From: a virus | Taxonomy: Duplodnaviria > Caudoviricetes | Virus record (IMG/VR): IMGVR_UViG_3300010052_000170 | Location: 5,927-69,926 of that record | DNA length: 64,000 nt | Reading direction: 5' to 3' (one strand) | Shown: one piece after another, positions 5,108-47,751 of the stretch | Numbering within the stretch: position 1 is the first letter of the stretch | How the letters are laid out: the number at the start of each line of letters is the position of its first letter | Made by a program: the position numbers and the translations under genes | The notes under the pieces: model-generated | The model's database searches: none | Seen by the model: only the letters and a program-made list of their open reading frames with translations | What the model was told of the DNA's origin: nothing

Positions 5108-5379
5108 GGGAGCCTCGTGTCGAGTTGTCCGGCAAGCAGGATCAGCGCGCAAAGCAGGGCGCATGCGATCCGTGGATGCAGGGCGAGAAGGTTGCAGATG
5201 GAGGAAAGCGCTTCGTCAGCGCGTGACAGGAATTGGGTGACCGGGCTGCTCGCATGGGGCAGCTCAACCCGGCCATTCCCTCCGAACCGCAAAATGCCGC
5301 ATGAGGTTCGGGAATGCTGCTCCCGGTAACGTACGCCTGTTGAGGCGGCGCGGCCAGTTAATTCGAAGATGCGCATCAC
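5104..5379 (-). CDS. Hypothetical protein with C-terminal hydrophobic helix
   Basis: ATGA overlaps at both ends. Confidence 0.5.
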   Translation of the reverse strand: MMRIFELTGRAASTGVRYREQHSRTSCGILRFGGNGRVELPHASSPVTQFLSRADEALSSICNLLALHPRIACALLCALILLAGQLDTRLP

Positions 5380-6806: not shown

Positions 6807-6837
6807 AAAATTCTTGCGAAGCGATTTTGAACCGCCT

Positions 6838-6874
6838 AAAAGAAAAGCGCCGGCGGGATGATCCGACCGGCGCT
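6838..6874 (-). terminator. Rho-independent terminator (leftward)
   Basis: agcgccgg...ccggcgct stem; A-run at 6838-6846 is a U-tract on the minus strand. Confidence 0.55.
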
Positions 6875-7320
6875 CGCAGTGACGAAAATGATGCACTCTG
6901 CTATCAAAACCAGTTTAAAAATGCAAGCAGATACTGCCGCTGCGAGGCGCGAAATCCGCAATATCTCGTGTCTGCTCGGAGGTTCCCGGCGAGATATTGG
7001 GGCAGGGAGCGCTTCTGCGGCGGTCTTTTCGGGCGATTGCCCCGCCGCTCCGATCGTCCGGAGCATGAATCACCCTCAGGTTGCCTGTTCCCTCACGAAC
7101 TGGCCGGTCGGGACGGGTAGGCGCCGTCCGAATGCTTTGGATGCGAGCTGAGGTGTAAACTGCGCAGAATACCCTGAAGGTTCAGGACGGATTGGCCCAC
7201 CGGCGAGACGGGCAGCGCAGGATATCCCGACTTCATAGCATCCCGGCCCGCGTCATATGCGGCTACCGAAGCGGCGTGCCCTTCAGGGAGTACGTCTTGA
7301 TAGGGCGAAGTTTGTCCAGA

Positions 7321-37256: not shown

Positions 37257-37730
37257 ATGACGGTGACAACCGCCTCGGGGTCGAAGGTATCGATCGGCCC
37301 GACAACCGCCGCGGCGAATGCCGCTGCCTATGCCGCCTTGACCTATGTCCCCATTGGCGAGGTGCAGAACCTTGGTGAGTTCGGCGACCAGTCGAACGAC
37401 GTGACGTTCACTTCGTTGTCGGATGGTCGCGTGCGGCACCTGAAGGGCGCCCGTGATGCCGGCGTGCTCGCCTTGGTCTGCGGCCGTGATCCTCTCGATG
37501 CGGGACAGGTGGCGCTCAGGGCAGCTGAAAAAACCAAATTTGCCTATGCGGTCAAGATCGAAGCGGCGGATGCTCTCGACGCGAATGACACCAACAGCGT
37601 GTTTTACTTTCACTGCCTGGTGCAGTCGGCGCGTGACAATTTCGGCGAGAGCGATGGCATCGTGACGACGACTTTCAATCTCGGCATAACGACCGGAATC
37701 ATCGAAGTTCCAGCGACGGTGGTGCCGTAA
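37257..37730 (+). CDS. Major tail tube protein
   Basis: YVPIGEVQNLGEFGD....VTF.SL.DGRVRHLKG..DAG...L....DP.DAGQVAL. Confidence 0.85.
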   Translation: MTVTTASGSKVSIGPTTAAANAAAYAALTYVPIGEVQNLGEFGDQSNDVTFTSLSDGRVRHLKGARDAGVLALVCGRDPLDAGQVALRAAEKTKFAYAVKIEAADALDANDTNSVFYFHCLVQSARDNFGESDGIVTTTFNLGITTGIIEVPATVVP

Positions 37731-38143
37731 TGGATCTCGCCAAGTTTGATGGTTTCGCCAAGTCCTTCGATGAAGGCATGGTCGTCGATCTCGTCCACCC
37801 TGCAACTGGGGAGAAGCTCGGCATGTCGGTGACGGTCGCGTCGTACCAGTCCGAGCGGGTGAAGAAGCTGCAGCGCAAGATGGCCAACGTCGCCATGCGA
37901 GAGCAGCGCCGGAACCCCAAGAAGGCTTCCACGGTCGAGGAAGTCGAGGAGAAGGCTCACGACATCATGGTCGCCGCCGTGGTGGCCTGGTCTGGCTTCG
38001 AGCGTGAAGGCAAGGAACTGCCTTGCACTCCCGAGAATGTCCGGGCAGTCCTGACAAACCCTGATCTCTGGTTCATCGCCGAGCAGATCGATAAGGCCGC
38101 GGACGACCAGCAGGGTTTTCTGACAGCCTCGGCGCGGACCTGA
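37730..38143 (+). CDS. Tail assembly chaperone (gpG-like)
   Basis: Position after the tail tube; ELPCTPENVRAVL...WFIAEQID. Confidence 0.8.
   Translation: MDLAKFDGFAKSFDEGMVVDLVHPATGEKLGMSVTVASYQSERVKKLQRKMANVAMREQRRNPKKASTVEEVEEKAHDIMVAAVVAWSGFEREGKELPCTPENVRAVLTNPDLWFIAEQIDKAADDQQGFLTASART
38113..38119 (+). other. -1 ribosomal frameshift site G GGT TTT
   Basis: XXXYYYZ heptamer in the correct phase; -1 frame open from 38113 to 38478. Confidence 0.8.
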
Positions 38144-38478
38144 TCTCCTTTGCCGAGGCGAAGTTTGCCAAGCCAGGGGCGGACCTCGATCCGCCCGATG
38201 CGACGGCCTATCTCTGGGATTGGTATCGAGACCTGTCCGTGTCTTTTGGTGGGATGGGCGGGACCAACTTCCACACCGAGATATCGAGCTACTGCCGGCT
38301 AACAGGAGCTGAACCCAGTCCTTGGGACGTCGCGATGCTCAGGGCGGTGTTCCGCGTGCACATGGGGGCGGCGGTGAAGAAGCCGGCGCCAGGAGAGGGC
38401 GTCATAGCCACAGACGTCGATGCTACCGATGGCGCGGCCGTGTCGGGTCTGCTGAGGGGGATGGGGGCGATGAGATAG
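38113..38478 (+). CDS. Frameshift extension of the tail chaperone (gpGT-like)
   Basis: GFSDSLGADLISFAEAKF...YLWDWYRDLS...EISSYCRLTG...PWDVAMLRA. Confidence 0.75.
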   Translation, partial: GFSDSLGADLISFAEAKFAKPGADLDPPDATAYLWDWYRDLSVSFGGMGGTNFHTEISSYCRLTGAEPSPWDVAMLRAVFRVHMGAAVKKPAPGEGVIATDVDATDGAAVSGLLRGMGAMR

Positions 38479-38560
38479 TCTCTTTTTCAGTAACATTGGT
38501 TTCTGTCAGTGGCACTCTACATAGAGGCGTCTTATGCTTAGATCTCTTCGGGGGGATTCC

Positions 38561-40549
38561 ATGGCAGAGATGCATTACAAAGTTGAGGTGGAAAGCGACC
38601 ACATCAGAAAACTTACCAGTTCCAAGCCCGTTCCTGCCCTTGCGGAACTAGTTTGGAATTCGATGGACGCGGATTCAACTCGCGTAGACGTAGAGTTCGA
38701 TCGGTCTGAGCTCGGAATGCAAAGTATCTTCGTGCGGGACAATGGACACGGGATACCCTATGCGGAAGTGCCGAAACTCTTTGGCAAGCTTGGCGGTTCA
38801 TGGAAGGCCCACGGAAGTCGCTCAAAGACAAAATCGCGCATGTTGCACGGGAAAGAGGGCAAGGGACGCTTCAAAGCACTTGCTCTAGGTCGCGTCGCTG
38901 AGTGGCAAATTACATACCGCGAAGGAAGCAAGACGTTCGGGTACACGATCACGATTATCCGTGACAACTTAGTCGATGTTCGCGTCTCGGAGCTGACCGA
39001 AATTGACGCCGCGATAAAGCCTGGCGTCGAGGTGAAGATCACTGAATTGGATCGAGCCTTTAGGTCACTCGAACCCGAGCAATCGCTCTCTTCTCTCGCC
39101 CAGATATTCGCTTTGTATCTGACAGATTACTCGGACACCTCGCTTTTCGTTGACTATCAACGCGTCGATCCGTCGGCTTGGATCAAAAGCAGGTCAACGA
39201 TCTCCCTTGCGGCGATTGAAGAGGATGGGAACAGCTTCCCCGCCGAGGTTGAGTTGATAGAGTGGACCACCGCTTCTGAGCGTTGGCTTTTCCTCTGCGG
39301 GCCCGAAGGATTTCCATTCCATCGGATAAGTCCCCATTTCCATACGCCGGGCGTTCAGTTTTCCGCATATCTGAAATCTCCGTTTGTCAGCCATCTCCAG
39401 CAGCTTGGAATTTTGGACCTTGCCGAAATGAACATGTCGCTGCAGTCGGCTCTTGATGAAGCTGGGGGCAAAATAAAGCTCTTCTTCCAAGAACGAGATG
39501 CCCTTGCCGCTCGTACAGAAATCGATCAATGGAAAGCGGAGAGCGTTTATCCCTATCGAGAAGAACCTCGGACGACGGTAGAGCAGGCAGAGCGCAAGGT
39601 TTTTGAGATCGTCGCGCTCACCGTCAATCGGCACCTCCCAGAGTTTTCGGGCGCCAATCGTAAAACGAAGGCGTTTCAGTTGCGTATGCTCCGACAGGCC
39701 ATTGAGCGAGGCCCAGACGAACTTCAGCACATTCTTACAGAGGTTCTCGATCTCCCCGAGCGAAAGCAGCAGGAACTCTCGAAGTTGTTGGAAGAGGCTG
39801 ACTTAGCAAGTGTTATCAGCGCTTCAAAATTGGTGTCGGATCGCCTCAAATTTGTGCATGGGCTGGAGGCACTGCTCTTCGACCCGGACAGTCGGAAGCT
39901 CCTCAAGGAAAGGAGCCAACTCCATCGAATGATTGCGGAAAACAATACCTGGATTTTTGGCGAGGAATTCAATCTCACGGTTGACGATGAATCGCTGACT
40001 GAAGTTCTCAGAAAACACCGCAAGTTAGTTGGCGAAGATATTGTCATTGACCAACCTGTGAAGCGAATTGATGGAAAGGTCGGAATTGTCGACTTGATGC
40101 TCTCTCGGTCGGTCCCGCAAAATCACGCAGATGAGAGAGAGCATCTGGTGGTCGAATTGAAACGTCCGTCTGTGAAGGTTGGCGCAGACGAAATCACTCA
40201 GGTGAAAAAATACGCCTTTACGATCGCAGACGATGAACGATTTAGACATCTGAAGACACGGTGGAGCTTCTGGGTAATATCGAACGACCTTGATGCCTTC
40301 GCTCGTCGAGAGACAAGACATATGGGGAAACCCAAAGGCCAAGTGTTTCAGTCCGAGGACGGAAACATAGAGGTTTGGGTAAAGTCCTGGTCCGAAGTCT
40401 TAGCAGAGTGCAAGTCGCGGATGAAATTCGTCCAGGATCATTTGCAGGCAAATGTCGACAAGGAAAAGTCGCTTCGGTACCTCCAAAAAACCTACGACAA
40501 GTATCTGGCCGGGGTCGTGGAGATTGAAGCACCCGATGAGGCAGCCTGA
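38561..40549 (+). CDS. GHKL (MORC/HATPase_c_3-like) ATPase fused to a PD-(D/E)XK nuclease-like domain
   Basis: ELVWNSMDA, VRDNGHG, GKEGKGRF; C-terminal TWIFGEEF, IVDLML, LVVELKRP, EITQVKKYA. Confidence 0.85.
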   Translation: MAEMHYKVEVESDHIRKLTSSKPVPALAELVWNSMDADSTRVDVEFDRSELGMQSIFVRDNGHGIPYAEVPKLFGKLGGSWKAHGSRSKTKSRMLHGKEGKGRFKALALGRVAEWQITYREGSKTFGYTITIIRDNLVDVRVSELTEIDAAIKPGVEVKITELDRAFRSLEPEQSLSSLAQIFALYLTDYSDTSLFVDYQRVDPSAWIKSRSTISLAAIEEDGNSFPAEVELIEWTTASERWLFLCGPEGFPFHRISPHFHTPGVQFSAYLKSPFVSHLQQLGILDLAEMNMSLQSALDEAGGKIKLFFQERDALAARTEIDQWKAESVYPYREEPRTTVEQAERKVFEIVALTVNRHLPEFSGANRKTKAFQLRMLRQAIERGPDELQHILTEVLDLPERKQQELSKLLEEADLASVISASKLVSDRLKFVHGLEALLFDPDSRKLLKERSQLHRMIAENNTWIFGEEFNLTVDDESLTEVLRKHRKLVGEDIVIDQPVKRIDGKVGIVDLMLSRSVPQNHADEREHLVVELKRPSVKVGADEITQVKKYAFTIADDERFRHLKTRWSFWVISNDLDAFARRETRHMGKPKGQVFQSEDGNIEVWVKSWSEVLAECKSRMKFVQDHLQANVDKEKSLRYLQKTYDKYLAGVVEIEAPDEAA

Positions 40550-40617
40550 GGATAACGCGGTCCGCCTAATTGCCGGAGTCCAAACGGCTTGGATATGATC
40601 CTCGCGGGGTAGGGATC

Positions 40618-42045
40618 ATGACAGACGACATTTGGGCCGGGGATCATCTCAATCGCAAGGAAGATGCGCAGTTTCTTACTGCCTATCTGCTGCAGCGAAA
40701 CGAACTTGCGGTTGTTGTCGGCGACAAGGGCACTTCGATCAACGTGAGCGCACAATGGGGCGCCGGGAAGACGTTCTTTCTGACTAGGCTTGCCCGGCAA
40801 CTTCGAGAAGATGGCTATCGCGTTGCCGAGGTGAACGCCTGGCGAGACGATCATGCTGACGACCCGATTTTCGCGGTGATGTCTGCAGTGCTCAAGGCGC
40901 TCGGGAAGGGGACCAGGTCTGCGAAGGTTGGCAGAACGCTGCTCAACAGCGCAGGCAAGATTGCGGTGCGAGCGTTGAAGGGCGGAGTGAAGAAGGCTGC
41001 TGCGATCGTAATCGACAAAGACGATGTAGACGGCATCGCGGACGACCTCGCCAGGGTTTTTGCGGAAGCAGGAGAGGAGACCATCGGAGAATTTGCCGAC
41101 AAAGCACTGGAGCGCTTTGAAGACGGTCAGAAAGCAATTGATAATTTCCGTTCCGAATTGGCGAAAGGAGTGAAGGGGCAGAAGCCGCTGTTTGTCCTGG
41201 TCGACGAATTGGACCGCTGCAGGCCCACCTACGCGGTCTCCCTATTGGAGCGCATCAAGCACCTTTTTGACGTCCCCAATGTCATCTTCGTTTTTGGGAC
41301 GCACAGTGACCAGCTCACGCACACGATAAGGTCAGTTTATGGAATTGGCTTCGATGCCGATCGATATCTCCATCGCTTCTTCGACACCACGTATCAATTC
41401 GACAGCCCAAAAACTGTGAACTTCGTGCAGGCTAAATGGGATGCCCTTCAGTTTAAGGATGCGCGTTTCGTAGAGATACACGGCACCAGCCAGCAAGCCT
41501 GTATTGCTAAGATCGCCGACAACAAAAGGCTCTCGCTACGCGACATTGATCAATGCATGGACGCGCTTTGGACCATAACCGGTCAACTCGACCCGCGCGT
41601 ACCTGTACCTCTTTTGTATCTCTTCCCGCTGGTTGTTGCCTACCATCTGCGATTGACCGATGTATTCGAGTTTGGGGCGGGTGAACCGGCTCGGGCATCG
41701 CTGCGGCAAGATGAAATCCAAGCTTTTTATGACGGTTCGGAGATATACAGCCGACAGATTTACAGCCGCACATCTCAGAATCACATCTGGCAAACGATGT
41801 CTCTTTCGCCCTTGATTTCTGCGTTCCGGTCTCTGCTCGCCAACGGATTGAACCAAGATGTTGCGTCCGACAATCTCGGCTATTCATATGCAGAGCGCTA
41901 TCGAGACGCTGAATTCCGAATTCTTCACTCGAGCATGTCTCGAGGAGAAAAGGTCCCAACGATCCTAGAATCGTATGGGAGCATGATCAGACGGGTCGGG
42001 CGCATAGGAGCCACCCCTGAAAATGATGAAGGTGAGCGCCGCTAG
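40618..42045 (+). CDS. KAP-family P-loop NTPase
   Basis: AQWGAGKTFF (Walker A), VNAWRDDH, LFVLVDELDRCRPTYAVSLLERIKHLFDVPNVIFV, RYLHRFFD. Confidence 0.92.
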   Translation: MTDDIWAGDHLNRKEDAQFLTAYLLQRNELAVVVGDKGTSINVSAQWGAGKTFFLTRLARQLREDGYRVAEVNAWRDDHADDPIFAVMSAVLKALGKGTRSAKVGRTLLNSAGKIAVRALKGGVKKAAAIVIDKDDVDGIADDLARVFAEAGEETIGEFADKALERFEDGQKAIDNFRSELAKGVKGQKPLFVLVDELDRCRPTYAVSLLERIKHLFDVPNVIFVFGTHSDQLTHTIRSVYGIGFDADRYLHRFFDTTYQFDSPKTVNFVQAKWDALQFKDARFVEIHGTSQQACIAKIADNKRLSLRDIDQCMDALWTITGQLDPRVPVPLLYLFPLVVAYHLRLTDVFEFGAGEPARASLRQDEIQAFYDGSEIYSRQIYSRTSQNHIWQTMSLSPLISAFRSLLANGLNQDVASDNLGYSYAERYRDAEFRILHSSMSRGEKVPTILESYGSMIRRVGRIGATPENDEGERR

Positions 42046-42072
42046 CAGTGAATGTCACGCAAAACGTGAAAC

Positions 42073-42285
42073 TCAGTCCGAAGCTTTGAGATAACCATGG
42101 CTGATGAGCCAATCGCGGATGATGCGGCGGATCGCTTCAGAGCGGGGTGGTTTGTCCGTTTCATCCAGGGCGAAAGCGTCGATTGCGTCAGTGAGCTCCG
42201 GCTCCATGCGAACGCTAATATGTGGTTGCTTCCCGGTAGCCGGGCGGCCTCGTTTTTTAGGTGTTACATTTTTTGTTGACGGCAT
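42073..42285 (-). CDS. Ribbon-helix-helix (Arc/CopG-like) regulator
   Basis: KKRGRPATG...ISVRMEPEL..AID.F......RSEAIRRIIRDWL. Confidence 0.85.
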   Translation of the reverse strand: MPSTKNVTPKKRGRPATGKQPHISVRMEPELTDAIDAFALDETDKPPRSEAIRRIIRDWLISHGYLKASD

Positions 42286-42304
42286 ATTTTAGGTGTGCCA
42301 TAAA
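42255..42304 (+). promoter_or_regulatory. Sigma70-type promoter with direct repeats, driving the RAMP-like operon
   Basis: TTGACG (42276-81)-N17-CATAAA (42299-304); TTTTAGGTGT at 42255-64 and 42287-96. Confidence 0.65.
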
Positions 42305-42374
42305 AGTCGGGCCGAAGCAAGAGTACCAGTCTTGCAGCGGCCCTAACCGAAACGAACCTGTTAGCGAGGATCGA

Positions 42375-42593
42375 ATGGCTGCGAACAGCAGTACCATGCG
42401 CCGGCGTGCACGCTCAACTCATTCAAAACGCGAAGCAATCATTGTCGACCTGATGGCCCAGGCTGAAGGTGCCGGCAAAGCGCTTCGCGTTCTTTCGAAG
42501 GTCGTGGCCGACACGATGGAAGAGGTTCACGGACGCAAGTTCCGTGTCTGCATCGACCACGACACCCCGATGATTCTGATCCGGCTCGACTAA
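42375..42593 (+). CDS. Small hypothetical protein (HG..RV.IDH family)
   Basis: GAGGA RBS; resembles 7976-8215. Confidence 0.65.
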   Translation: MAANSSTMRRRARSTHSKREAIIVDLMAQAEGAGKALRVLSKVVADTMEEVHGRKFRVCIDHDTPMILIRLD

Positions 42594-42605
42594 GGGGAGG
42601 GACGG

Positions 42606-42914
42606 ATGAAACAGATCACTCGTCGCCTTTTTCTTCGCCAATCCGTCGCCGCCAGCGTTGTGGCTCCGGCCGTCGTCGCAGCTACCGGAGTGGTGGCCGA
42701 ACCGCGGCAGGTGCGAGATGTCATGGAAGAGCTTGAACGCTTGATCCAAAAGCAAACTGGTGTGGGCTGGTCGGTGATGCTAGCCGCCAACGAGACGATT
42801 ATCCTAGATGGGATGCCAAGACTGCCCATGGTCTGCTTCGCTCGAAGCTCGGACGGAACCCCGCAGTGGCAAGACAAATACGGCGTAGTCGAAACTGCGT
42901 CGGTGACCACCTGA
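42606..42914 (+). CDS. Small protein with twin-arginine-like N-terminus
   Basis: MKQITRRLFLRQSVAASVVAPAVVAA; GGGAGG RBS. Confidence 0.6.
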   Translation: MKQITRRLFLRQSVAASVVAPAVVAATGVVAEPRQVRDVMEELERLIQKQTGVGWSVMLAANETIILDGMPRLPMVCFARSSDGTPQWQDKYGVVETASVTT

Positions 42915-43043
42915 ACACCTGAATTCCGCCTCTGGCAGGGCGGTTTAGACGCGAAATTCGAGAGCTTCTTCGGCTCCCGGTTTCGCCAACGCGAACCCGT
43001 GCGTCTCGGGCCTGCCAGGGCCGGGATGCCGAAGGAGGCCATT

Positions 43044-43697
43044 ATGGCTACGAAGCAAGACGTCGGAATTGAACTGCCGGCCCTGAAAATCGGGCTGATG
43101 GAAGTGACCTTGATCGGCGACAGTCCGCTGATCGTCCATGCGTGGAGCCACAAGGCAAAGCGCGAAATGCTCGACAAACAGATGAAGAAGGCCAAGGGCG
43201 CCAAGGAGGCGAAAGACCCGAAGGCCGATTATGAGGCGAGCATGTATCGCTTGGCCGATGGTGGTTACGGCTTCCCCTCGGTGGGCTTCAAGGCCGCCGC
43301 AGTCACGGCAGGAACCAGCGTGGCAGGGTTGACCAAGATCGCGGCTCGGCAGGCTTTCCACGTTCTCGGTGAGGATGTGGACATCAAGGGTGCATTCGAA
43401 GGCTCGGTCTCTCGCGTCAACCTTGCCCGTATCGAAGGCGGAGATCCGCAGATGCGCGAAGACATGGTTCGCGTCGGCATGGGAACGGCAGACCTACGGT
43501 ACAGGGCTGAGTTCCCGAAATGGCATGCACGCGTTCTGGTTAGGTACAATCAGGGCGTCCTATCGGAAAGCCAGATCCTGAACCTGCTCAATACAGCTGG
43601 CTTCGCTGTCGGCGTAGGCGAGTGGCGGCCGGAAAAGGATGGGGCCTATGGGATGTTCCACGTTGCGACCGAAGCCGAACTGGAGACCTTGCAATGA
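43044..43697 (+). CDS. Cas7/RAMP-like protein (Vipr-like), putative RNA-guided effector
   Basis: EVTLIGDSPLIVH (RAMP beta1, like L...SPLHIG); YGFPSVGFKAA (like IPGSSLKGA); C-terminal G-loop AGFAVGVGEWRPEKDGAYGMFHV; AAGGAGG RBS; next to the GGY-NN array. Confidence 0.8.
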   Translation: MATKQDVGIELPALKIGLMEVTLIGDSPLIVHAWSHKAKREMLDKQMKKAKGAKEAKDPKADYEASMYRLADGGYGFPSVGFKAAAVTAGTSVAGLTKIAARQAFHVLGEDVDIKGAFEGSVSRVNLARIEGGDPQMREDMVRVGMGTADLRYRAEFPKWHARVLVRYNQGVLSESQILNLLNTAGFAVGVGEWRPEKDGAYGMFHVATEAELETLQ

Positions 43698-44209
43698 GGA
43701 TCGCCGGTTTCGAGTTTAGCGATGGTGCTCGGTTCCAGGCGGGAGCGCCGCACGACGCCAAGGCAGCGAAGGCCGTCGGCGACCATTTGGAGTTACTGAG
43801 GAAGCAGCACCAGAATGAGTTGACGCCGGAAGACGTCTTGGAAGACGCGAAGCACGACAACTCACCATTGCATCCGTACTTTGAATGGTCAGACAGTGCC
43901 GCTGCGCATCAGCACCGGCTCGCGCAAGCGCGAGGGTTAATCAGGAGCGTCGTCGCGATCTATGTCAGCGAGGATAAGCCGGCCGTGAGGACGAAGGCGT
44001 TCGTGCATATCGCTGAACCGTCTGCACCTCACTATCGAGAAGCATCGCACGCGATGAGCCAGCAGAAGACACGAAAGATGGTTCTTCAGCAGGCGTGGCG
44101 AGAGCTCCAAGCTTGGAAGTCCCGCTACAAACATCTGCAGGAATTTTCTGATCTTATCACCGTCATCGACGAGGTAGATCGGCATCTGCCAAAGGCCGCA
44201 AAGCATTAG
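43694..44209 (+). CDS. Accessory protein coupled to the RAMP-like gene
   Basis: ATGA overlap; LTPEDVLEDAKHDNSPLHPYFEWSDSAAAHQHRLAQARGLIRSV. Confidence 0.8.
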   Translation: MRIAGFEFSDGARFQAGAPHDAKAAKAVGDHLELLRKQHQNELTPEDVLEDAKHDNSPLHPYFEWSDSAAAHQHRLAQARGLIRSVVAIYVSEDKPAVRTKAFVHIAEPSAPHYREASHAMSQQKTRKMVLQQAWRELQAWKSRYKHLQEFSDLITVIDEVDRHLPKAAKH

Positions 44210-44217
44210 GGCTTCAA

Positions 44218-44590
44218 GGCAGGCGGGGTCTGGCATGTCCGGGTTCGGTGTGCCCTGGCGCGCCATGGTTAGGCAGGTGAAATGCGCGGAGCCGGATGCC
44301 CATCCGGCTGGCGAGGATCAAGGTAGGGCAGGCGTGGTAAGTCCAGGGAAGGTGGGACACGGCCGGGTAAGGTGCGGCAGGCTTGGCTAGGCGGGTTGCG
44401 GCTAGTCGCGGCACGGCAGGCAAGGCAAGCCTAGGTCCGATTTGGCAAGGTATGGCTTGGCTAGGCAGGCAAGGCACGGCGAGGTTCGGCGCGGTAAGCC
44501 TAGGTTCGGCGACGCATGTTATGGCAGGCGTGGTATGTTAAGCTAAGGCATCGTACGGTGAGGCCGGGCCTGCTCTGGCGAGGCAGGCAA
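44218..44590 (+). ncRNA. GGY-NN pentamer array (putative guide-RNA precursor, 7 units)
   Basis: Strict 5-nt periodicity; eight 4-nt GGCA breaks at 44218, 44272, 44327, 44376, 44415, 44464, 44523, 44582; begins 8 nt after the accessory stop and ends at a terminator. Confidence 0.85.
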
Positions 44591-44594
44591 ACGG

Positions 44595-44620
44595 GAGCGG
44601 TTCTTCGGAGCCGCTCTTTC
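44595..44620 (+). terminator. Terminator closing the array
   Basis: gagcggttc-TTCG-gagccgctc followed by tttc. Confidence 0.7.
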
Positions 44621-45218
44621 ATCTCCCGAACAGGCGTTGCAGCCACGACTTCCTGCTTGCTTCATGCTCCGTCTCCTCCCGGTGGGCAGCAACCACCTTT
44701 CCAACGTAGTCAACCTGAGGGCGGATGCCGAGTGCGCAAGCCTCGTTAGCGCAATCACCCGGCGGCAGCGTGTGTAGTTGTTCCGGCTCGATCTCTTGGT
44801 TGTTCAGCCTGACGCAGCCTGGACAGTCACCCCACGCCAACCTGATGTGAAATGTCACGTCATCTCCGAGATCGGTGCCGACCAACGCTTGCATTTGTCG
44901 ATGTCGAAAGTATGCGAAATTTGCATCCAGAACGGTGACTTCAATGCCCTTTATCGGGGCGGATAGTCCTTTCTCGGTTAGTGCGGATATAGCTTCATGC
45001 GACATGTCAGCATTTGCGCGAAGGCCAATGCTTTTCTTGGCTTCCCGGGGAAGGGGCTGCCCGGTCTGCCGAAACTGCCGCGCAATCTGGTGTGGATGAG
45101 TTCCTTCGTATTCCTCCATAAGAGCCGCAATTTGCTGGAAACACTCTGGCTTGAGGTATCCGAGGCGACGGCCTGATCGGTCGACGTGTTCAAGGAACTT
45201 GCTTCCATGGTCAGTCAT
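44619..45218 (-). CDS. Hypothetical moron
   Basis: 199 aa; CPGC and C...C..C motifs; ends SWLQRLFGR. Confidence 0.65.
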   Translation of the reverse strand: MTDHGSKFLEHVDRSGRRLGYLKPECFQQIAALMEEYEGTHPHQIARQFRQTGQPLPREAKKSIGLRANADMSHEAISALTEKGLSAPIKGIEVTVLDANFAYFRHRQMQALVGTDLGDDVTFHIRLAWGDCPGCVRLNNQEIEPEQLHTLPPGDCANEACALGIRPQVDYVGKVVAAHREETEHEASRKSWLQRLFGR

Positions 45219-45495
45219 GGAAGTTCTTTGTCATGTTCCGGCAAGATTTCTCGTTAAGCGGGCTGCCTTCCCGACTTTGGGCTTCGACGTAGGCAATCAT
45301 CTCGACAGACTTCTTGTCTCCAACGAGCCGGCTCGCCTCCTTCTTCGCCCACGCATAGGGCGCAAGATCCTTCAGAATAGGACCGCACTGGTAGGCGGTC
45401 GTTAGGCGAAAGATCGCCTTCTTAACGTCGCCATCACTCGGTTCAGCGTGGGCGACTGCCGACCAGAGACACAACGTCGAAACAAGCCAGCGCAT
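45211..45495 (-). CDS. Secreted small protein moron
   Basis: Signal peptide MRWLVSTLCLWSAVAHA; stop overlaps the start of 44619-45218. Confidence 0.6.
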   Translation of the reverse strand: MRWLVSTLCLWSAVAHAEPSDGDVKKAIFRLTTAYQCGPILKDLAPYAWAKKEASRLVGDKKSVEMIAYVEAQSREGSPLNEKSCRNMTKNFHD

Positions 45496-45558
45496 CCAAA
45501 ACCTCCCATTGAAAAATGGGCGGGACGATAGCGTTTGCCACCGTAAAAGGTAAAGCCC

Positions 45559-47751
45559 ATGGACGTCGCACAGCTTGGTCTTGAGGTCCGAAGCGAGCAG
45601 GTCGAACGCGGCACCTCGTCTTTGAATCGCTTTGCCGGCGCAGCCAAGCAGGCGGAGGCGGCAACAAAAGGGATCACGACTGGCGCTCGCGGTGCAGCTA
45701 GCGCTGTGCAGGCCGTGGCTGGTGCCAGCGACAATGCGGCAGGTGCTCTCAATCGTGAGGCTGGAGCTGCGCGGAATGCTTCCGCCGCCATGAAGGGGCA
45801 CGCCACCGCGGTCAATGACAATGCGAGGCGCATGGGAGGTAGCTTTTCTGGCCTAGCCGCTCAGTTTCAAGACATCGGGGTCACTGCTGCCGGTGGCATG
45901 AACCCCCTCATAATCGGCCTGCAGCAAGGCACACAGATTGCCGGTGCAATGGAAATGGCGATGCAAAGCGGCGCATCCGCGACTGGTGTATTTGGCGCCG
46001 CGCTAAAATCCCTCCTCTCGCCTGTCTCGCTCCTTTCGATCGGCCTTGCTGTGCTACTCGCCGCCGGCCTTCAGATGGTGAACTGGTCGAAGGCCGCTGC
46101 TGCCGTACTAGATGGGCTGGCCGGTATCCTGGAAGATATTGCGCCGTACGCCGTTGCCGCTGCGGCTGGGTTGGCGCTGATTTACGCGCCGGCCATCATC
46201 GGAGGCCTGACACTCCTTTCCGAGATGATCCTTGGGCTAACGGCAAGGCTCATCGGATTGGCTGCTGGCTTCGCTCTCGCCAACCCGGCCACTGCCTTCA
46301 TTGCCGGTGTCACAGCGGCAGTAGCGGCCGCGGTCATTTTCAGGGACGAATTGACCAGAATTCTGGGGGTGGATGTCGTTGGCGCTGCCAAGGCTGGGGC
46401 AAATTTTATCGTCAACAGCTTCGAAGCCGCCTTTTCAGATGTGAAGTTCATCTGGAACAATTTCGGCGACATGATGGGGGCCGCTGTTGTCGGCGGGGTC
46501 AACATTGCTATCCGTGCCATCGACGAACTTATCCAGAAAGCATCGGAAGGCATCGACTGGCTCATTAAGAAGGTCAACCCATACCTGGAAATGGGCGGCA
46601 TGGACCCACTCAGGGAAGTGGGCGGAAGCTTTTCGCTCAAGCCACTCGCCAACCCATACGCTGACCGTTTCGCCAAGGCCAACACCTCCCACGCTGCAGA
46701 AATCGCCGACATCATGAGCCAGGATCGGCTCGGCCAGTTTGGTACAGCGATTGCAAATCGCGCTTCGGCCGCGTCTGGCAAGTTGAAGGAACTGGCCGAT
46801 TGGGTTGGAAAGGTCGACGAAAAGACCGGCAAGAAGGCGGGTAAAAGCGAGGCCGAAAAATACTCATCGATCATCGACGGAGCGAACCGCCGCATAGCTT
46901 CGTTGCAGTCCGAATACGACGCGCTCGGCATGACCGAGTTCGCCGCCGCTAAACTAGCGTATCAGACAGACATGCTGAACGAGGCGCAGCGCAAGGGGAT
47001 CACCCTTACCGCGGCTCAGAAGGCTGAGATTTCTGATCTCGCAGGCCGCTTGGCTTCGCTTGAGATCGCCACGCGCGACGCCCGCGATGCGATGGACTTC
47101 GCGAAGGACATGACGAAGGGCTTCGTTTCGGATCTCCGCTCAGGCTTGGAGCAGGGAAAAGGCTTCTGGCAGAGCTTCGGCAATGCGGCGCTGAACGTCC
47201 TCGACAAGATCACAGACAAGTTGCTTGACGACTTGCTGAACGCCATCTTCAGGGTGAACTCGGCAGGGTCTTCTGGCGGCGGCGGTTTCTGGGGCATCCT
47301 CGGAAGCCTGTTCGGCCTTGGTGGGGGAGGTGGCAGCGGCCTCGGTGGTCTGACCTGGGATAGCTGGGCTAAAGGCGGTTACACCGGACCTGGAGGCAAG
47401 TACGAGCCTGCTGGCACGGTACATCGAGGCGAATATGTCTTCTCGGCCGCTGCAACCCGCATGATCGGCGTGGCCAACCTCGACCGTGCTCACAGGAGTG
47501 CTCGGCGCGGCTATGCCGAGGGCGGCTACGTCGACAACAGCACACCACGTCTGTTTGCCCCGGCAAACCGGAATGACGCTCAGCCAATCGTCTATTCGCC
47601 GACGATCCAGATCGACGCTCGTGGCGCAGAGAATGGTGACGACATCCGCCGTGCCGGCCAGGAGCTTCTGAAGCAGATGCGCGGCGAATTCTACAACAAC
47701 ACGAAGAAGGCGTTGCAGCTGCTCAAGATCAACACCGGAGGGCGGTTCTGA
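45559..47751 (+). CDS. Tape measure protein (730 aa)
   Basis: MDVAQLGLEVRS; AAQFQDIGVTAAGGMNP...LQQGTQI; Ala/Gly-rich; AKGGYTGPGGKYEPAGTVHRGEYVF. Confidence 0.92.
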   Translation: MDVAQLGLEVRSEQVERGTSSLNRFAGAAKQAEAATKGITTGARGAASAVQAVAGASDNAAGALNREAGAARNASAAMKGHATAVNDNARRMGGSFSGLAAQFQDIGVTAAGGMNPLIIGLQQGTQIAGAMEMAMQSGASATGVFGAALKSLLSPVSLLSIGLAVLLAAGLQMVNWSKAAAAVLDGLAGILEDIAPYAVAAAAGLALIYAPAIIGGLTLLSEMILGLTARLIGLAAGFALANPATAFIAGVTAAVAAAVIFRDELTRILGVDVVGAAKAGANFIVNSFEAAFSDVKFIWNNFGDMMGAAVVGGVNIAIRAIDELIQKASEGIDWLIKKVNPYLEMGGMDPLREVGGSFSLKPLANPYADRFAKANTSHAAEIADIMSQDRLGQFGTAIANRASAASGKLKELADWVGKVDEKTGKKAGKSEAEKYSSIIDGANRRIASLQSEYDALGMTEFAAAKLAYQTDMLNEAQRKGITLTAAQKAEISDLAGRLASLEIATRDARDAMDFAKDMTKGFVSDLRSGLEQGKGFWQSFGNAALNVLDKITDKLLDDLLNAIFRVNSAGSSGGGGFWGILGSLFGLGGGGGSGLGGLTWDSWAKGGYTGPGGKYEPAGTVHRGEYVFSAAATRMIGVANLDRAHRSARRGYAEGGYVDNSTPRLFAPANRNDAQPIVYSPTIQIDARGAENGDDIRRAGQELLKQMRGEFYNNTKKALQLLKINTGGRF

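What the first reader, a model, noticed from the sequence alone, without database searches (positions are those of the whole stretch)
46843..46875. Unit 6 decodes to a second tape-measure segment
Seen: U6 (44468-44522) reads K/N-T-D/E-S-A-K/N-Y-S-D/E-I/M-I/M. The tape measure gene reads K-S-E-A-E-K-Y-S-S-I-I (AAA AGC GAG GCC GAA AAA TAC TCA TCG ATC ATC), 17/22 nt, sense strand and in phase. Two adjacent guides point to the same essential late gene about 350 nt apart. Inference: they block a competitor's tail assembly. An alternative is weak self-silencing of late genes.
Basis: partly seen in the sequence, partly recalled or inferred. Interest (0 to 1): 0.8.

Follow-up and report, generated by a model that had tools for sequence, protein, structure and literature searches.

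The report
VIPR guide aimed at rival tape-measure genes
A prophage carries the recently described VIPR RNA-guided silencing system, and one of its guide RNAs matches a conserved stretch of the tail tape-measure gene of related phages better than it matches the prophage's own copy, as expected for a weapon against competing phages.

Summary
U6 (44468-44522) is 11 GGYNN pentamers. Read as NNx, its NN bases match 46843-46874, in frame in the tape-measure gene, at 17/22. That is the unique best site in the window.

The decoding scheme is the published VIPR system (bioRxiv 10.64898/2026.04.26.720920):
- The window encodes a Vipr RAMP protein, homologous to phage SUSP1 Vipr (hhalign 97.6%).
- It also encodes an accessory gene and a staggered vrRNA array.

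On its own, 17/22 is only marginal (permutation P about 0.03) and lies below the published 80% target threshold. The homologous site in tape-measure genes of related Rhizobiales phages and prophages matches better:
- 19/22 in 17 IMG/VR contigs and 7 genomes, and 20/22 in two contigs (P 0.0007 or less).
- The window's own copy deviates from the family at two conserved residues, T to S and D to S.
- U1 behaves the same way: rival vap genes 19/20, self 15/20.

U6 is therefore most likely a real guide against competitors' tape-measure genes, with the self site de-targeted.

Limits:
- U7's link to the same gene is weak.
- No 21-22/22 tape-measure target was found.
- Silencing is untested.

This is a new member of a known kind.

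The parts
42073..42285 (-). Small divergent regulator (RHH/repressor-like) at the left edge of the VIPR cassette
   Evidence: phrog_4738 transcriptional repressor, E 1.2e-5
43044..43697 (+). vipr: 217-aa RAMP protein
   Evidence: phrog_4652, E 4e-34. The profile of 30 homologs against phage SUSP1 Vipr gives hhalign 97.6%, E 4.3e-12, over 167 columns. AF2 model pLDDT 88.9. Top Foldseek PDB hits are Csm3/Cmr4/Cas7-type RAMPs, E 1.5e-5.
43694..44209 (+). vap: 171-aa accessory gene, start overlaps the vipr stop
   Evidence: phrog_15946, E 7e-23. Found next to vipr in 61 of 80 related loci and in Gordonia phages. No similarity to SUSP1 vap1. AF2 pLDDT 95. Residues about 20-118 weakly resemble winged-helix domains, Z about 5.
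44218..44271 (+). vrRNA unit U1 (GGCA + 10 pentamers)
   Evidence: Parse. Matches vap genes of other VIPR loci 19/20 but the window's own vap (43934-43963) only 15/20.
44284..44326 (+).
   Evidence: Nearly the same sequence lies directly after the vap stop and before the first unit in L003 and L005. Folds as an 8-bp perfect stem.
44327..44463 (+). vrRNA units U3, U4, U5 (GGCA + 9, 7, 9 pentamers)
   Evidence: GGCAGG junctions at 44327, 44376, 44415 and 44464. In-window matches are at chance level.
44464..44522 (+). vrRNA unit U6 (GGCA + 11 pentamers), the guide in question
   Evidence: Not shared with any of 130 units from related arrays.
44523..44581 (+). vrRNA unit U7 (GGCA + 11 pentamers)
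44593..44614 (+). Terminator-like hairpin closing the array
   Evidence: 11-bp stem, -18.1 kcal/mol, z -2.6. The same hairpin ends the array in L003.
45559..47751 (+). Tail length tape-measure gene (730 aa)
   Evidence: phrog_8892, E 1.1e-91; Pfam TMP_2.
46843..46875 (+). Self copy of the U6 target motif (KSEAEKYSSII), 17/22 NN match
   Evidence: The homologous site in relatives is KT[DE]AEKYSDI[VI], scoring 19-20/22.
47197..47229 (+). Best in-window match of U7 (VLDKITDKLLD), 17/22
   Evidence: Weak support only.
43934..43963 (+). Self copy of the U1 target motif in vap (GLIRSVVAIY), 15/20, differing from rivals by synonymous Leu/Arg/Ser codon-family switches
43608..43637 (+). Site in the window's own vipr (G-loop, VGVGEWRPEK) matched 19/20 by a guide of another VIPR locus (L013)
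37730..38143 (+). Tail assembly chaperone: left border of the 7.4-kb island that separates it from the tape-measure gene
   Evidence: phrog_313, E 2.7e-15. In the U6-target phages the chaperone and the tape-measure gene are adjacent.

Best explanation
The window carries a VIPR (Viral Interference Programmable Repeat) system. It has three parts: vipr (43044-43697), vap (43694-44209) and a staggered array of vrRNA units (44218-44585). Each unit is GGCA followed by 7-11 G-G/T-Y-N-N pentamers.

By the published mechanism, Vipr protomers polymerise along a vrRNA, hold each GGY and present the NN pairs. The NN pairs bind double-stranded DNA that reads NNx NNx, and the bound filament blocks transcription.

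Unit U6 is tuned to a conserved motif of the tape-measure gene family of related Rhizobiales siphophages: KT[DE]AEKYSDI[VI], 19-20 of 22 informative bases. The site at 46843-46875 is the prophage's own copy of that motif. It carries rare substitutions (T to S, D to S) that drop it to 17/22, below the level counted as a target. The prophage would therefore spare itself while silencing the tail operon of a superinfecting or co-resident relative.

Shown here:
- System identity.
- Array grammar.
- The better-than-self, better-than-chance match to rival tape-measure genes.

Inferred:
- Expression and processing of U6.
- Tolerance of the two or three remaining mismatches.
- Silencing.
For: System identity:
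- Vipr profile against the experimentally studied SUSP1 Vipr: hhalign 97.6%, E 4e-12.
- RAMP fold in the model.
- 5-nt GG periodicity in the array.
- 71 of 80 loci with a Vipr homolog carry such an array on the vipr strand; a CC-strand signal was flagged in only one locus.
- 130 distinct units from 63 loci give G 95%, G/T 94%, C/T 94%, N, N at the five pentamer positions.
- NN content is completely different in loci whose Vipr is 92-93% identical.
- Rule, threshold and mechanism come from papers 10.64898/2026.04.26.720920.720927 and 10.64898/2026.10.15.759431.

U6 and the tape-measure gene:
- 19/22 at the homologous in-frame site in 8 of 80 IMG/VR tape-measure loci, and 18/22 in 4 more.
- A relaxed 18-base pattern hits 19 IMG/VR contigs. 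All are tape-measure homologs at this site, 17 at 19/22 and two at 20/22.
- The same pattern hits 7 Rhizobiales genomes, all at 19/22.
- In an alignment-defined set of 43 distinct homologous sites the modal score is 19, and 23 sites are at or above 0.8.
- Shuffled-guide null on the 80 loci: 1/1500 (dinucleotide order) and 0/1500 (base order) reach 19.
- None of 29 natural 11-unit guides exceeds 17.
- Of the 5 self mismatches, the family consensus differs from self at 3, and all 3 differences restore a match to U6.
- Self S at residue 2 is seen in 3 of 43 sites, and S at residue 9 in none.

Generality:
- U1 matches rival vap genes 19/20 against self 15/20 (P 0/300).
- Foreign guides hit this window 16/16 and 19/20.
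- The 1-nt skip gives 4 hits at or above 0.9, against 0, 0 and 1 for skips of 0, 2 and 3 nt.
- The target phages lack vipr and vap and have the chaperone next to the tape-measure gene.
Against: - No tape-measure gene with 21-22/22 was found in IMG/VR, 185k GTDB species genomes or JGI metagenomes.
- Two mismatches sit in the middle of the guide (units 4 and 5, TC GC against GCN GAR) in every known target. Mismatch tolerance of VIPR is not published, and the 0.8 threshold is a bioinformatic convention.
- The window's tape-measure protein is only about 61% identical to its nearest relative. Four changes in 11 residues are therefore not by themselves more than background divergence, so selection for self-escape is not demonstrated.
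- The host of this provirus is not known, so co-occurrence with the target phages is inferred only from their Rhizobiales origin.
- This clade has a different vap and no 3' tail of the SUSP1 type, so transfer of the SUSP1 mechanism is an assumption.
Confidence: 0.65

Rival explanations
1. U6 is a decayed or orphaned guide. It descends from a tape-measure-directed guide, or is aimed at a variant that is rare or extinct. With 2-3 mismatches to every extant tape-measure gene it no longer silences anything, and the site at 46843 has no functional relation to it today.
For: The best natural matches stop at 19-20/22, and the same two central mismatches recur in all of them. Exact and near-exact pattern scans of three collections found no tape-measure target. 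The VIPR cassette is mobile and sits in unrelated phage backgrounds: only 1 of 80 Vipr loci (L011) has this tape-measure family nearby. The guide could therefore have been inherited from an earlier carrier.
Against: 19 of 22 informative bases agree with a family whose wobble positions vary freely (commonest wobble base 0.45-0.81), which suggests maintenance. The published natural-target criterion (at least 0.8) is met. One relative's tape-measure gene (L011) has Ser at unit 4, so better-matching variants plausibly exist unsampled. The targeted family is the carrier's own tape-measure family, which a guide left over from an unrelated earlier carrier would not be expected to match.
Confidence: 0.17
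2. Weak self-silencing. U6 (and U7) bind the prophage's own tape-measure gene imperfectly and damp late tail-gene expression, for example in the lysogen.
For: The self site is the best match in the provirus (17/22). The U7 self match (17/22) is higher than its match on close relatives (15-16).
Against: The self score of 0.77 is below the 0.8 threshold. The VIPR papers found no self hits at or above 0.8, and found self scores systematically lower than non-self scores. Here U6 and U1 both match non-self homologs better than self, which is the signature of avoided autoimmunity. Self substitutions fall on otherwise conserved residues.
Confidence: 0.08
3. Pure coincidence. The 17/22 match and its relatives are chance resemblances between an A/T-rich NN string and a Lys/Glu/Asp-rich coding motif.
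For: In the window alone P is about 0.03 per guide, with 6-7 guides tried. One of 29 natural guides does as well. AT-rich genomes give unrelated 20-21/22 hits.
Against: Shuffled-guide P is 0.0007 or less on tape-measure homologs. All 19 IMG/VR hits of the relaxed pattern are the same homologous site. All three consensus-versus-self differences at mismatched positions go towards the guide. The same pattern is seen independently for U1 and vap.
Confidence: 0.05

Closest known systems
VIPR systems (Vipr + Vap + vrRNA), type example Escherichia phage SUSP1 and a Pseudomonas fulva prophage (bioRxiv 10.64898/2026.04.26.720920, 10.64898/2026.04.26.720927 and 10.64898/2026.10.15.759431)
   Same: - A small RAMP protein homologous to SUSP1 Vipr, followed by an accessory gene.
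- Same-strand GGY/NN pentamer arrays with hypervariable NN.
- Targets read by the 1-nt skip rule, in codon phase.
- Phage-borne.
- Guides that hit other phages and other VIPR systems.
- Self score lower than non-self score.
   Different: - The accessory protein is unrelated in sequence to SUSP1 vap1.
- The array is of the 'staggered' kind: units abut through a 4-nt GGCA junction and have no conserved pseudoknot tail. The paper mentions this architecture (fig. S18 legend) but did not characterise it experimentally.
- The predicted target is a structural late gene (tape measure) of full-size related phages, not a satellite recombinase or lysis-lysogeny regulators.
- The cassette is inserted between the tail chaperone and the tape-measure gene.
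Class 1 CRISPR-Cas backbone proteins (Cas7/Csm3/Cmr4) and CRISPR interference by binding only
   Same: RAMP fold (Foldseek hits E 1e-5 to 1e-3). The protein oligomerises along a guide RNA with a fixed nucleotide period. Silencing by roadblock is the published VIPR mode.
   Different: - 5-nt rather than 6-nt period.
- Only 2 of 5 guide bases pair.
- The target is read with a 3-nt period.
- No cas1/cas2, no repeat-spacer array and no PAM (per the paper).
- No nuclease domain was recognised in this locus.
Phage-encoded CRISPR systems and mini-arrays used against rival elements (e.g. Vibrio phage ICP1 against PLE; from my own knowledge, not checked here)
   Same: RNA-guided inter-element warfare carried by a phage, with guides matching essential genes of competitors.
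   Different: Different protein family, different guide architecture, and contiguous base pairing.

Membership tests
VIPR system | Vipr protein: small single-RRM RAMP homologous to characterised Vipr | tested here: met
   hhalign of a 30-sequence profile against SUSP1 ALH47069.1: 97.6%, E 4.3e-12, 167 columns, including the GVG(E/D)WRP G-loop. AF2 pLDDT 88.9. Foldseek top hits are Csm3/Cmr4/Cas7.
VIPR system | Adjacent same-strand tandem GGY/NN (YNNGG) pentamer repeats, 9-16 per vrRNA | tested here: met
   5-nt GG autocorrelation. Units of 7-11 pentamers. Arrays found in 71 of 80 homologous loci on the vipr strand; only one CC-strand signal was flagged. U4 with 7 pentamers is below the stated range.
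VIPR system | GGY conserved while NN is hypervariable between close relatives | tested here: met
   Position frequencies from 130 distinct units. Loci with 92-93% identical Vipr share no units.
VIPR system | Natural targets under the 1-nt skip rule at 80% NN match or more in other mobile elements, and none in self | tested here: met
   U6 scores 0.86-0.91 on rival tape-measure genes and 0.77 on self. U1 scores 0.95 on rival vap genes and 0.75 on self. The 1-nt skip outperforms skips of 0, 2 and 3 nt.
VIPR system | Accessory vap gene next to vipr | tested here: met
   A conserved neighbour in 61 of 80 loci and in Gordonia phages. It is not homologous to SUSP1 vap1. The fold is only weakly winged-helix-like. 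Which of vap1-6 it is could not be decided.
VIPR system | Conserved structured 3' tail after each repeat tract (type II architecture) | tested here: not met
   Units abut through GGCA junctions with no 40-nt tail. This fits the 'staggered array' architecture named in the paper rather than type II. The VIPR type (I-VII) could not be assigned without the paper's data files.
VIPR system | vrRNAs expressed, processed and co-purifying with Vipr; DNA binding and silencing | not testable with these tools
   No RNA run is listed for this sequence.
CRISPR-Cas | Repeat-spacer array and adaptation genes (cas1/cas2) | tested here: not met
   No direct-repeat/spacer structure: TRF finds only the terminator region. 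No Rfam CRISPR or other family match. Neighbouring genes are GHKL ATPase, KAP NTPase, RHH and unknowns.

The most novel reading that the evidence does not exclude
In this Rhizobiales clade the VIPR array is stocked with guides against homologs of the carrier's own genes (vap for U1, tape measure for U6). The carrier's copies bear guide-evading changes: synonymous switches between six-fold codon families in vap, and substitutions at otherwise near-invariant residues in the tape-measure protein. If so, VIPR pressure is a measurable force in the evolution of phage structural genes. The staggered, tail-less array with a new Vap would then be a functionally distinct VIPR variant that polices close relatives rather than satellites.
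Probability: 0.4. Interest if true: 0.6.

Novelty: new member of a known kind. Interest (0 to 1): 0.42.

Why it matters
VIPR was described only in 2026, and only enterobacterial and Pseudomonas examples have been tested.

This locus offers three things:
- A natural alphaproteobacterial example in which the target can be named: a conserved tape-measure motif shared by at least 26 phages and prophages.
- The self copy and the rival copies side by side, at 17/22 against 19-20/22.
- A second guide (U1) in the same array that shows the same self/non-self asymmetry by a different route, synonymous recoding.

This yields a ready graded set of natural sites (17, 19 and 20 of 22, plus a synthetic 22/22) for measuring VIPR mismatch tolerance, which the papers do not report. 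It also shows that structural late genes, and not only regulators and recombinases, are natural VIPR targets.

Tried and rejected
- **Protein-coding reading of the array:** rejected. No + strand ORF longer than 52 aa lies in 44210-44590. The same kind of array is annotated as 'gene 40, hypothetical protein' in Gordonia phage UmaThurman, which is most likely a miscall.
- **Known RNA family:** none. Rfam at E up to 10 gives only noise.
- **Tandem Repeats Finder:** does not see the array, only the terminator region.
- **blastn of the module against phage records:** only a 97-nt match.
- **Exact U6 pattern in IMG/VR:** 0 hits.
- **U6 pattern requiring Ser-Ala at units 4-5, in JGI metagenomes:** 2 hits, both outside tape-measure genes and AT-rich, one with an in-frame stop.
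- **Relaxed U6 pattern in GTDB genomes:** 24 of the 31 hits are chance hits, mostly in AT-rich genomes, several at 20-21/22 but outside tape-measure genes and often out of any frame.
- **Exact U7 pattern:** 0 hits. Its 9-unit core gives 2 hits outside tape-measure genes.
- **Search of relatives of the host genome:** not possible, because the record is a provirus without drawn relatives.
- **Public RNA runs:** no RNA holder is listed.
- **Vap:** no Pfam family, no Foldseek match at E 0.001 or better, and only Z about 5 winged-helix-like rows with VIA-align.
- **Guide sharing:** U6 and U7 are not shared with any of 130 units of related arrays.
- **Consensus promoter scan of 42000-45700:** found nothing.
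- **Correction to my own notebook:** entry 2 says 78/80 loci carry arrays. The correct count is 71/80. Six of the nine without a flagged array are contigs that end soon after vipr.
Full report
**1. What is at the coordinates.**

The site 46843-46875 lies in frame inside ORF 45559-47751. This 730-aa ORF is a tail length tape-measure protein (phrog_8892, E 1e-91; Pfam TMP_2). The site encodes KSEAEKYSSII.

The 'unit 6' of the finding, 44468-44522, is 11 pentamers of the form GGYNN. Their last two bases read AA AC GA TC GC AA TA TC GA AT AT. Written as NNx and slid over both strands of the window, this pattern has its single best match at 46843, with 17 of 22 informative bases. Nothing else scores 16 or more. 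No site in the whole 69.9-kb provirus record comes within 3 mismatches. The arithmetic of the finding is right, including the 354-nt distance to the U7 match at 47197.

**2. What the array is.**

The 44210-44590 intergenic stretch has a clear 5-nt periodicity of GG on the + strand. It ends in an 11-bp terminator-like hairpin.

The two genes in front of it (phrog_4652 and phrog_15946) recur with the same kind of array elsewhere:
- Gordonia phage Ecliptus carries them, again between the tail chaperone and the tape-measure gene.
- Gordonia phage UmaThurman carries them, with the array annotated as a protein gene.
- 71 of 80 IMG/VR loci with a homolog of the first gene carry an array on the gene's strand. 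A CC-strand signal was flagged in only one locus.

A literature search then showed that this is the VIPR system described in 2026 (10.64898/2026.04.26.720920). It consists of a small RAMP protein (Vipr), an accessory protein (Vap) and vrRNAs of 9-16 YNNGG repeats. The NN bases recognise double-stranded DNA with one skipped base per unit. The skipped base usually falls on the codon wobble position. Vipr protomers polymerise along the vrRNA (10.64898/2026.04.26.720927), and binding represses transcription.

Membership was tested:
- The profile of the window's protein family aligns to SUSP1 Vipr at 97.6% probability, E 4e-12.
- The AF2 model (pLDDT 88.9) finds Csm3/Cmr4/Cas7 RAMPs.
- 130 distinct units from 63 related loci show G, G/T, Y conserved and NN variable.
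- Loci with 92-93% identical Vipr share no guides.

Units are separated by a 4-nt GGCA junction. This corresponds to the 'staggered arrays' mentioned in the paper.

In close relatives it sits directly after vap.

The Vap here is unrelated to SUSP1 vap1. It has no Pfam family and only a weak winged-helix resemblance.

**3. Is the U6 match more than chance?**

Inside the window alone it is hardly so:
- 3% of shuffled guides reach 17/22.
- 1 of 29 natural 11-unit guides from other arrays reaches 17/22.
- Six or seven units were tried.
- 17/22 = 0.77 is below the 0.8 that the VIPR papers use to call a natural target. Those papers found no self hits at or above 0.8.

The decisive evidence is comparative.
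- Among 80 IMG/VR tape-measure homologs, the homologous in-frame site scores 19/22 in eight and 18/22 in four.
- A relaxed pattern (18 fixed bases) returned 19 IMG/VR contigs. All are this same site in tape-measure genes, 17 at 19/22 and two at 20/22.
- The same pattern returned 7 Rhizobiales genomes (Mesorhizobium, Pararhizobium, Rhizobium, Shinella, Aminobacter and two unnamed), all at 19/22. The other 24 genome hits are unrelated chance hits, mostly in AT-rich genomes.
- In a set of 43 distinct sites defined by alignment, not by score, the mode is 19/22 and 23 sites are at or above 0.8.
- On the 80 loci, 1 of 1500 order-shuffled guides and 0 of 1500 base-shuffled guides reach 19.
- No natural decoy guide exceeds 17.

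The family consensus (KTEAEKYSDIV) itself scores 19/22. It differs from the window's own site at three of the five self mismatches, and all three differences restore a match to U6.

The window's Ser at residue 2 occurs in 3 of 43 sites. Its Ser at residue 9 occurs in none.

The phages that carry the better-matching sites have the chaperone directly next to the tape-measure gene, and no vipr, vap, GHKL or KAP genes in the DNA held.

**4. Independent support from the same array and clade.**

- U1 matches the vap genes of other VIPR loci at 19/20 (0 of 300 shuffles reach this). It matches the window's own vap at only 15/20. The difference lies in synonymous switches between Leu, Arg and Ser codon families.
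- Guides of other loci hit this window. An 8-unit guide of L005 matches 6902-6925 perfectly. A 10-unit guide of L013 matches the G-loop codons of the window's vipr at 19/20.
- Over a 567-kb test set, the 1-nt skip rule gives four matches at or above 0.9. Skips of 0, 2 and 3 nt give none, none and one.
- Lower self than non-self scores are reported for SUSP1-family vrRNAs as a way to avoid autoimmunity (10.64898/2026.10.15.759431).

**5. What is not supported.**

U7's connection to the tape-measure gene is weak:
- It scores 17/22 on self, but only 15-16 on the phages that U6 matches.
- It reaches 18/22 only in distant homologs (P 0.01-0.02 uncorrected).
- No exact hit exists, and only two hits outside tape-measure genes exist for its 9-unit core.

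No tape-measure gene with 21-22/22 for U6 was found in any collection. The two central mismatches (units 4 and 5) are shared by all targets. VIPR mismatch tolerance is unpublished.

Because the tape-measure protein is only about 61% identical to its nearest relative, selection for self-escape cannot be separated from ordinary divergence.

Expression could not be examined.

**6. Verdict.**

The site is the prophage's own, sub-threshold copy of a conserved tape-measure motif, and guide U6 of a bona fide VIPR system matches that motif well in related Rhizobiales phages.

The most likely function is transcriptional blocking of a competitor's tail operon, with the self copy spared (confidence about 0.65).

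Rivals are a decayed or orphaned guide (0.17), weak self-silencing (0.08) and coincidence (0.05).

The system belongs to a kind described in 2026, so this is a new member rather than a new kind. Its value is as a natural, graded test case for VIPR self/non-self discrimination and as evidence that structural genes are targeted.

Noticed in passing
window 44218-44271 and 43934-43963; L004, L005, L017 vap genes: Guide U1 matches the conserved GLIRSVVAIY codons of vap in other VIPR loci at 19/20 (0/300 shuffles). It matches the window's own vap at only 15/20, because self uses TTA/AGG/AGC where rivals use CTN/CGN/TCN. The first unit of L021 shares 17/20 NN with U1.
   Followed up: yes
window 43608-43637: A 10-unit guide of another VIPR locus (L013, unit at 5218) matches the G-loop codons (VGVGEWRPEK) of the window's vipr at 19/20. 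This phage's VIPR is therefore itself a predicted target of a rival VIPR.
   Followed up: partly
window 6902-6925: An 8-unit guide of L005 (Vipr 93% identical to the window's) matches here perfectly (16/16), in frame with ORF 6827-7120, which has no PHROG family.
   Followed up: partly
window 44284-44326: What looked like a degenerate guide unit is a conserved hairpin (perfect 8-bp stem). In L003 and L005 it lies directly after the vap stop and before the first unit. In the window an extra unit (U1) precedes it. Its role (leader, processing or termination signal) is unknown.
   Followed up: partly
window 38143-45559: A 7.4-kb island splits the tail chaperone from the tape-measure gene. It holds a GHKL-type ATPase (38534-40549) plus a KAP NTPase (40570-42045), the RHH + VIPR cassette, and two minus-strand ORFs of unknown family (44619-45218, 45211-45801). 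Gordonia phage Ecliptus carries its VIPR cassette at the same chaperone/tape-measure junction.
   Followed up: partly
L002 3626-3949 (Gordonia phage UmaThurman gene 40); L001 3700-3930: In UmaThurman the vrRNA array between the vipr and vap homologs is annotated as a hypothetical protein gene. In Ecliptus it is an unannotated gap. In these actinophages the array lies between vipr and vap, not after vap.
   Followed up: partly
phage records H12-H38: About 29 Mycobacterium phage records (Saal, Quico, Florinda, Donkeykong and others) encode a 41% identical Vipr homolog annotated as hypothetical. LESphi2 (Pseudomonas) and a cyanophage have more distant homologs.
   Followed up: no
L007 unit at 5193 -> L137 2315; L027 unit at 5180 -> L201 1020: Other guides of this clade also match structural genes of related phages. 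One matches a conserved tape-measure motif (KYKEQMEFAKD, 16/18). Another matches a site in L201 (17/18) that I take to be a portal gene only from a YHVPP motif recalled from memory; this was not tested.
   Followed up: no
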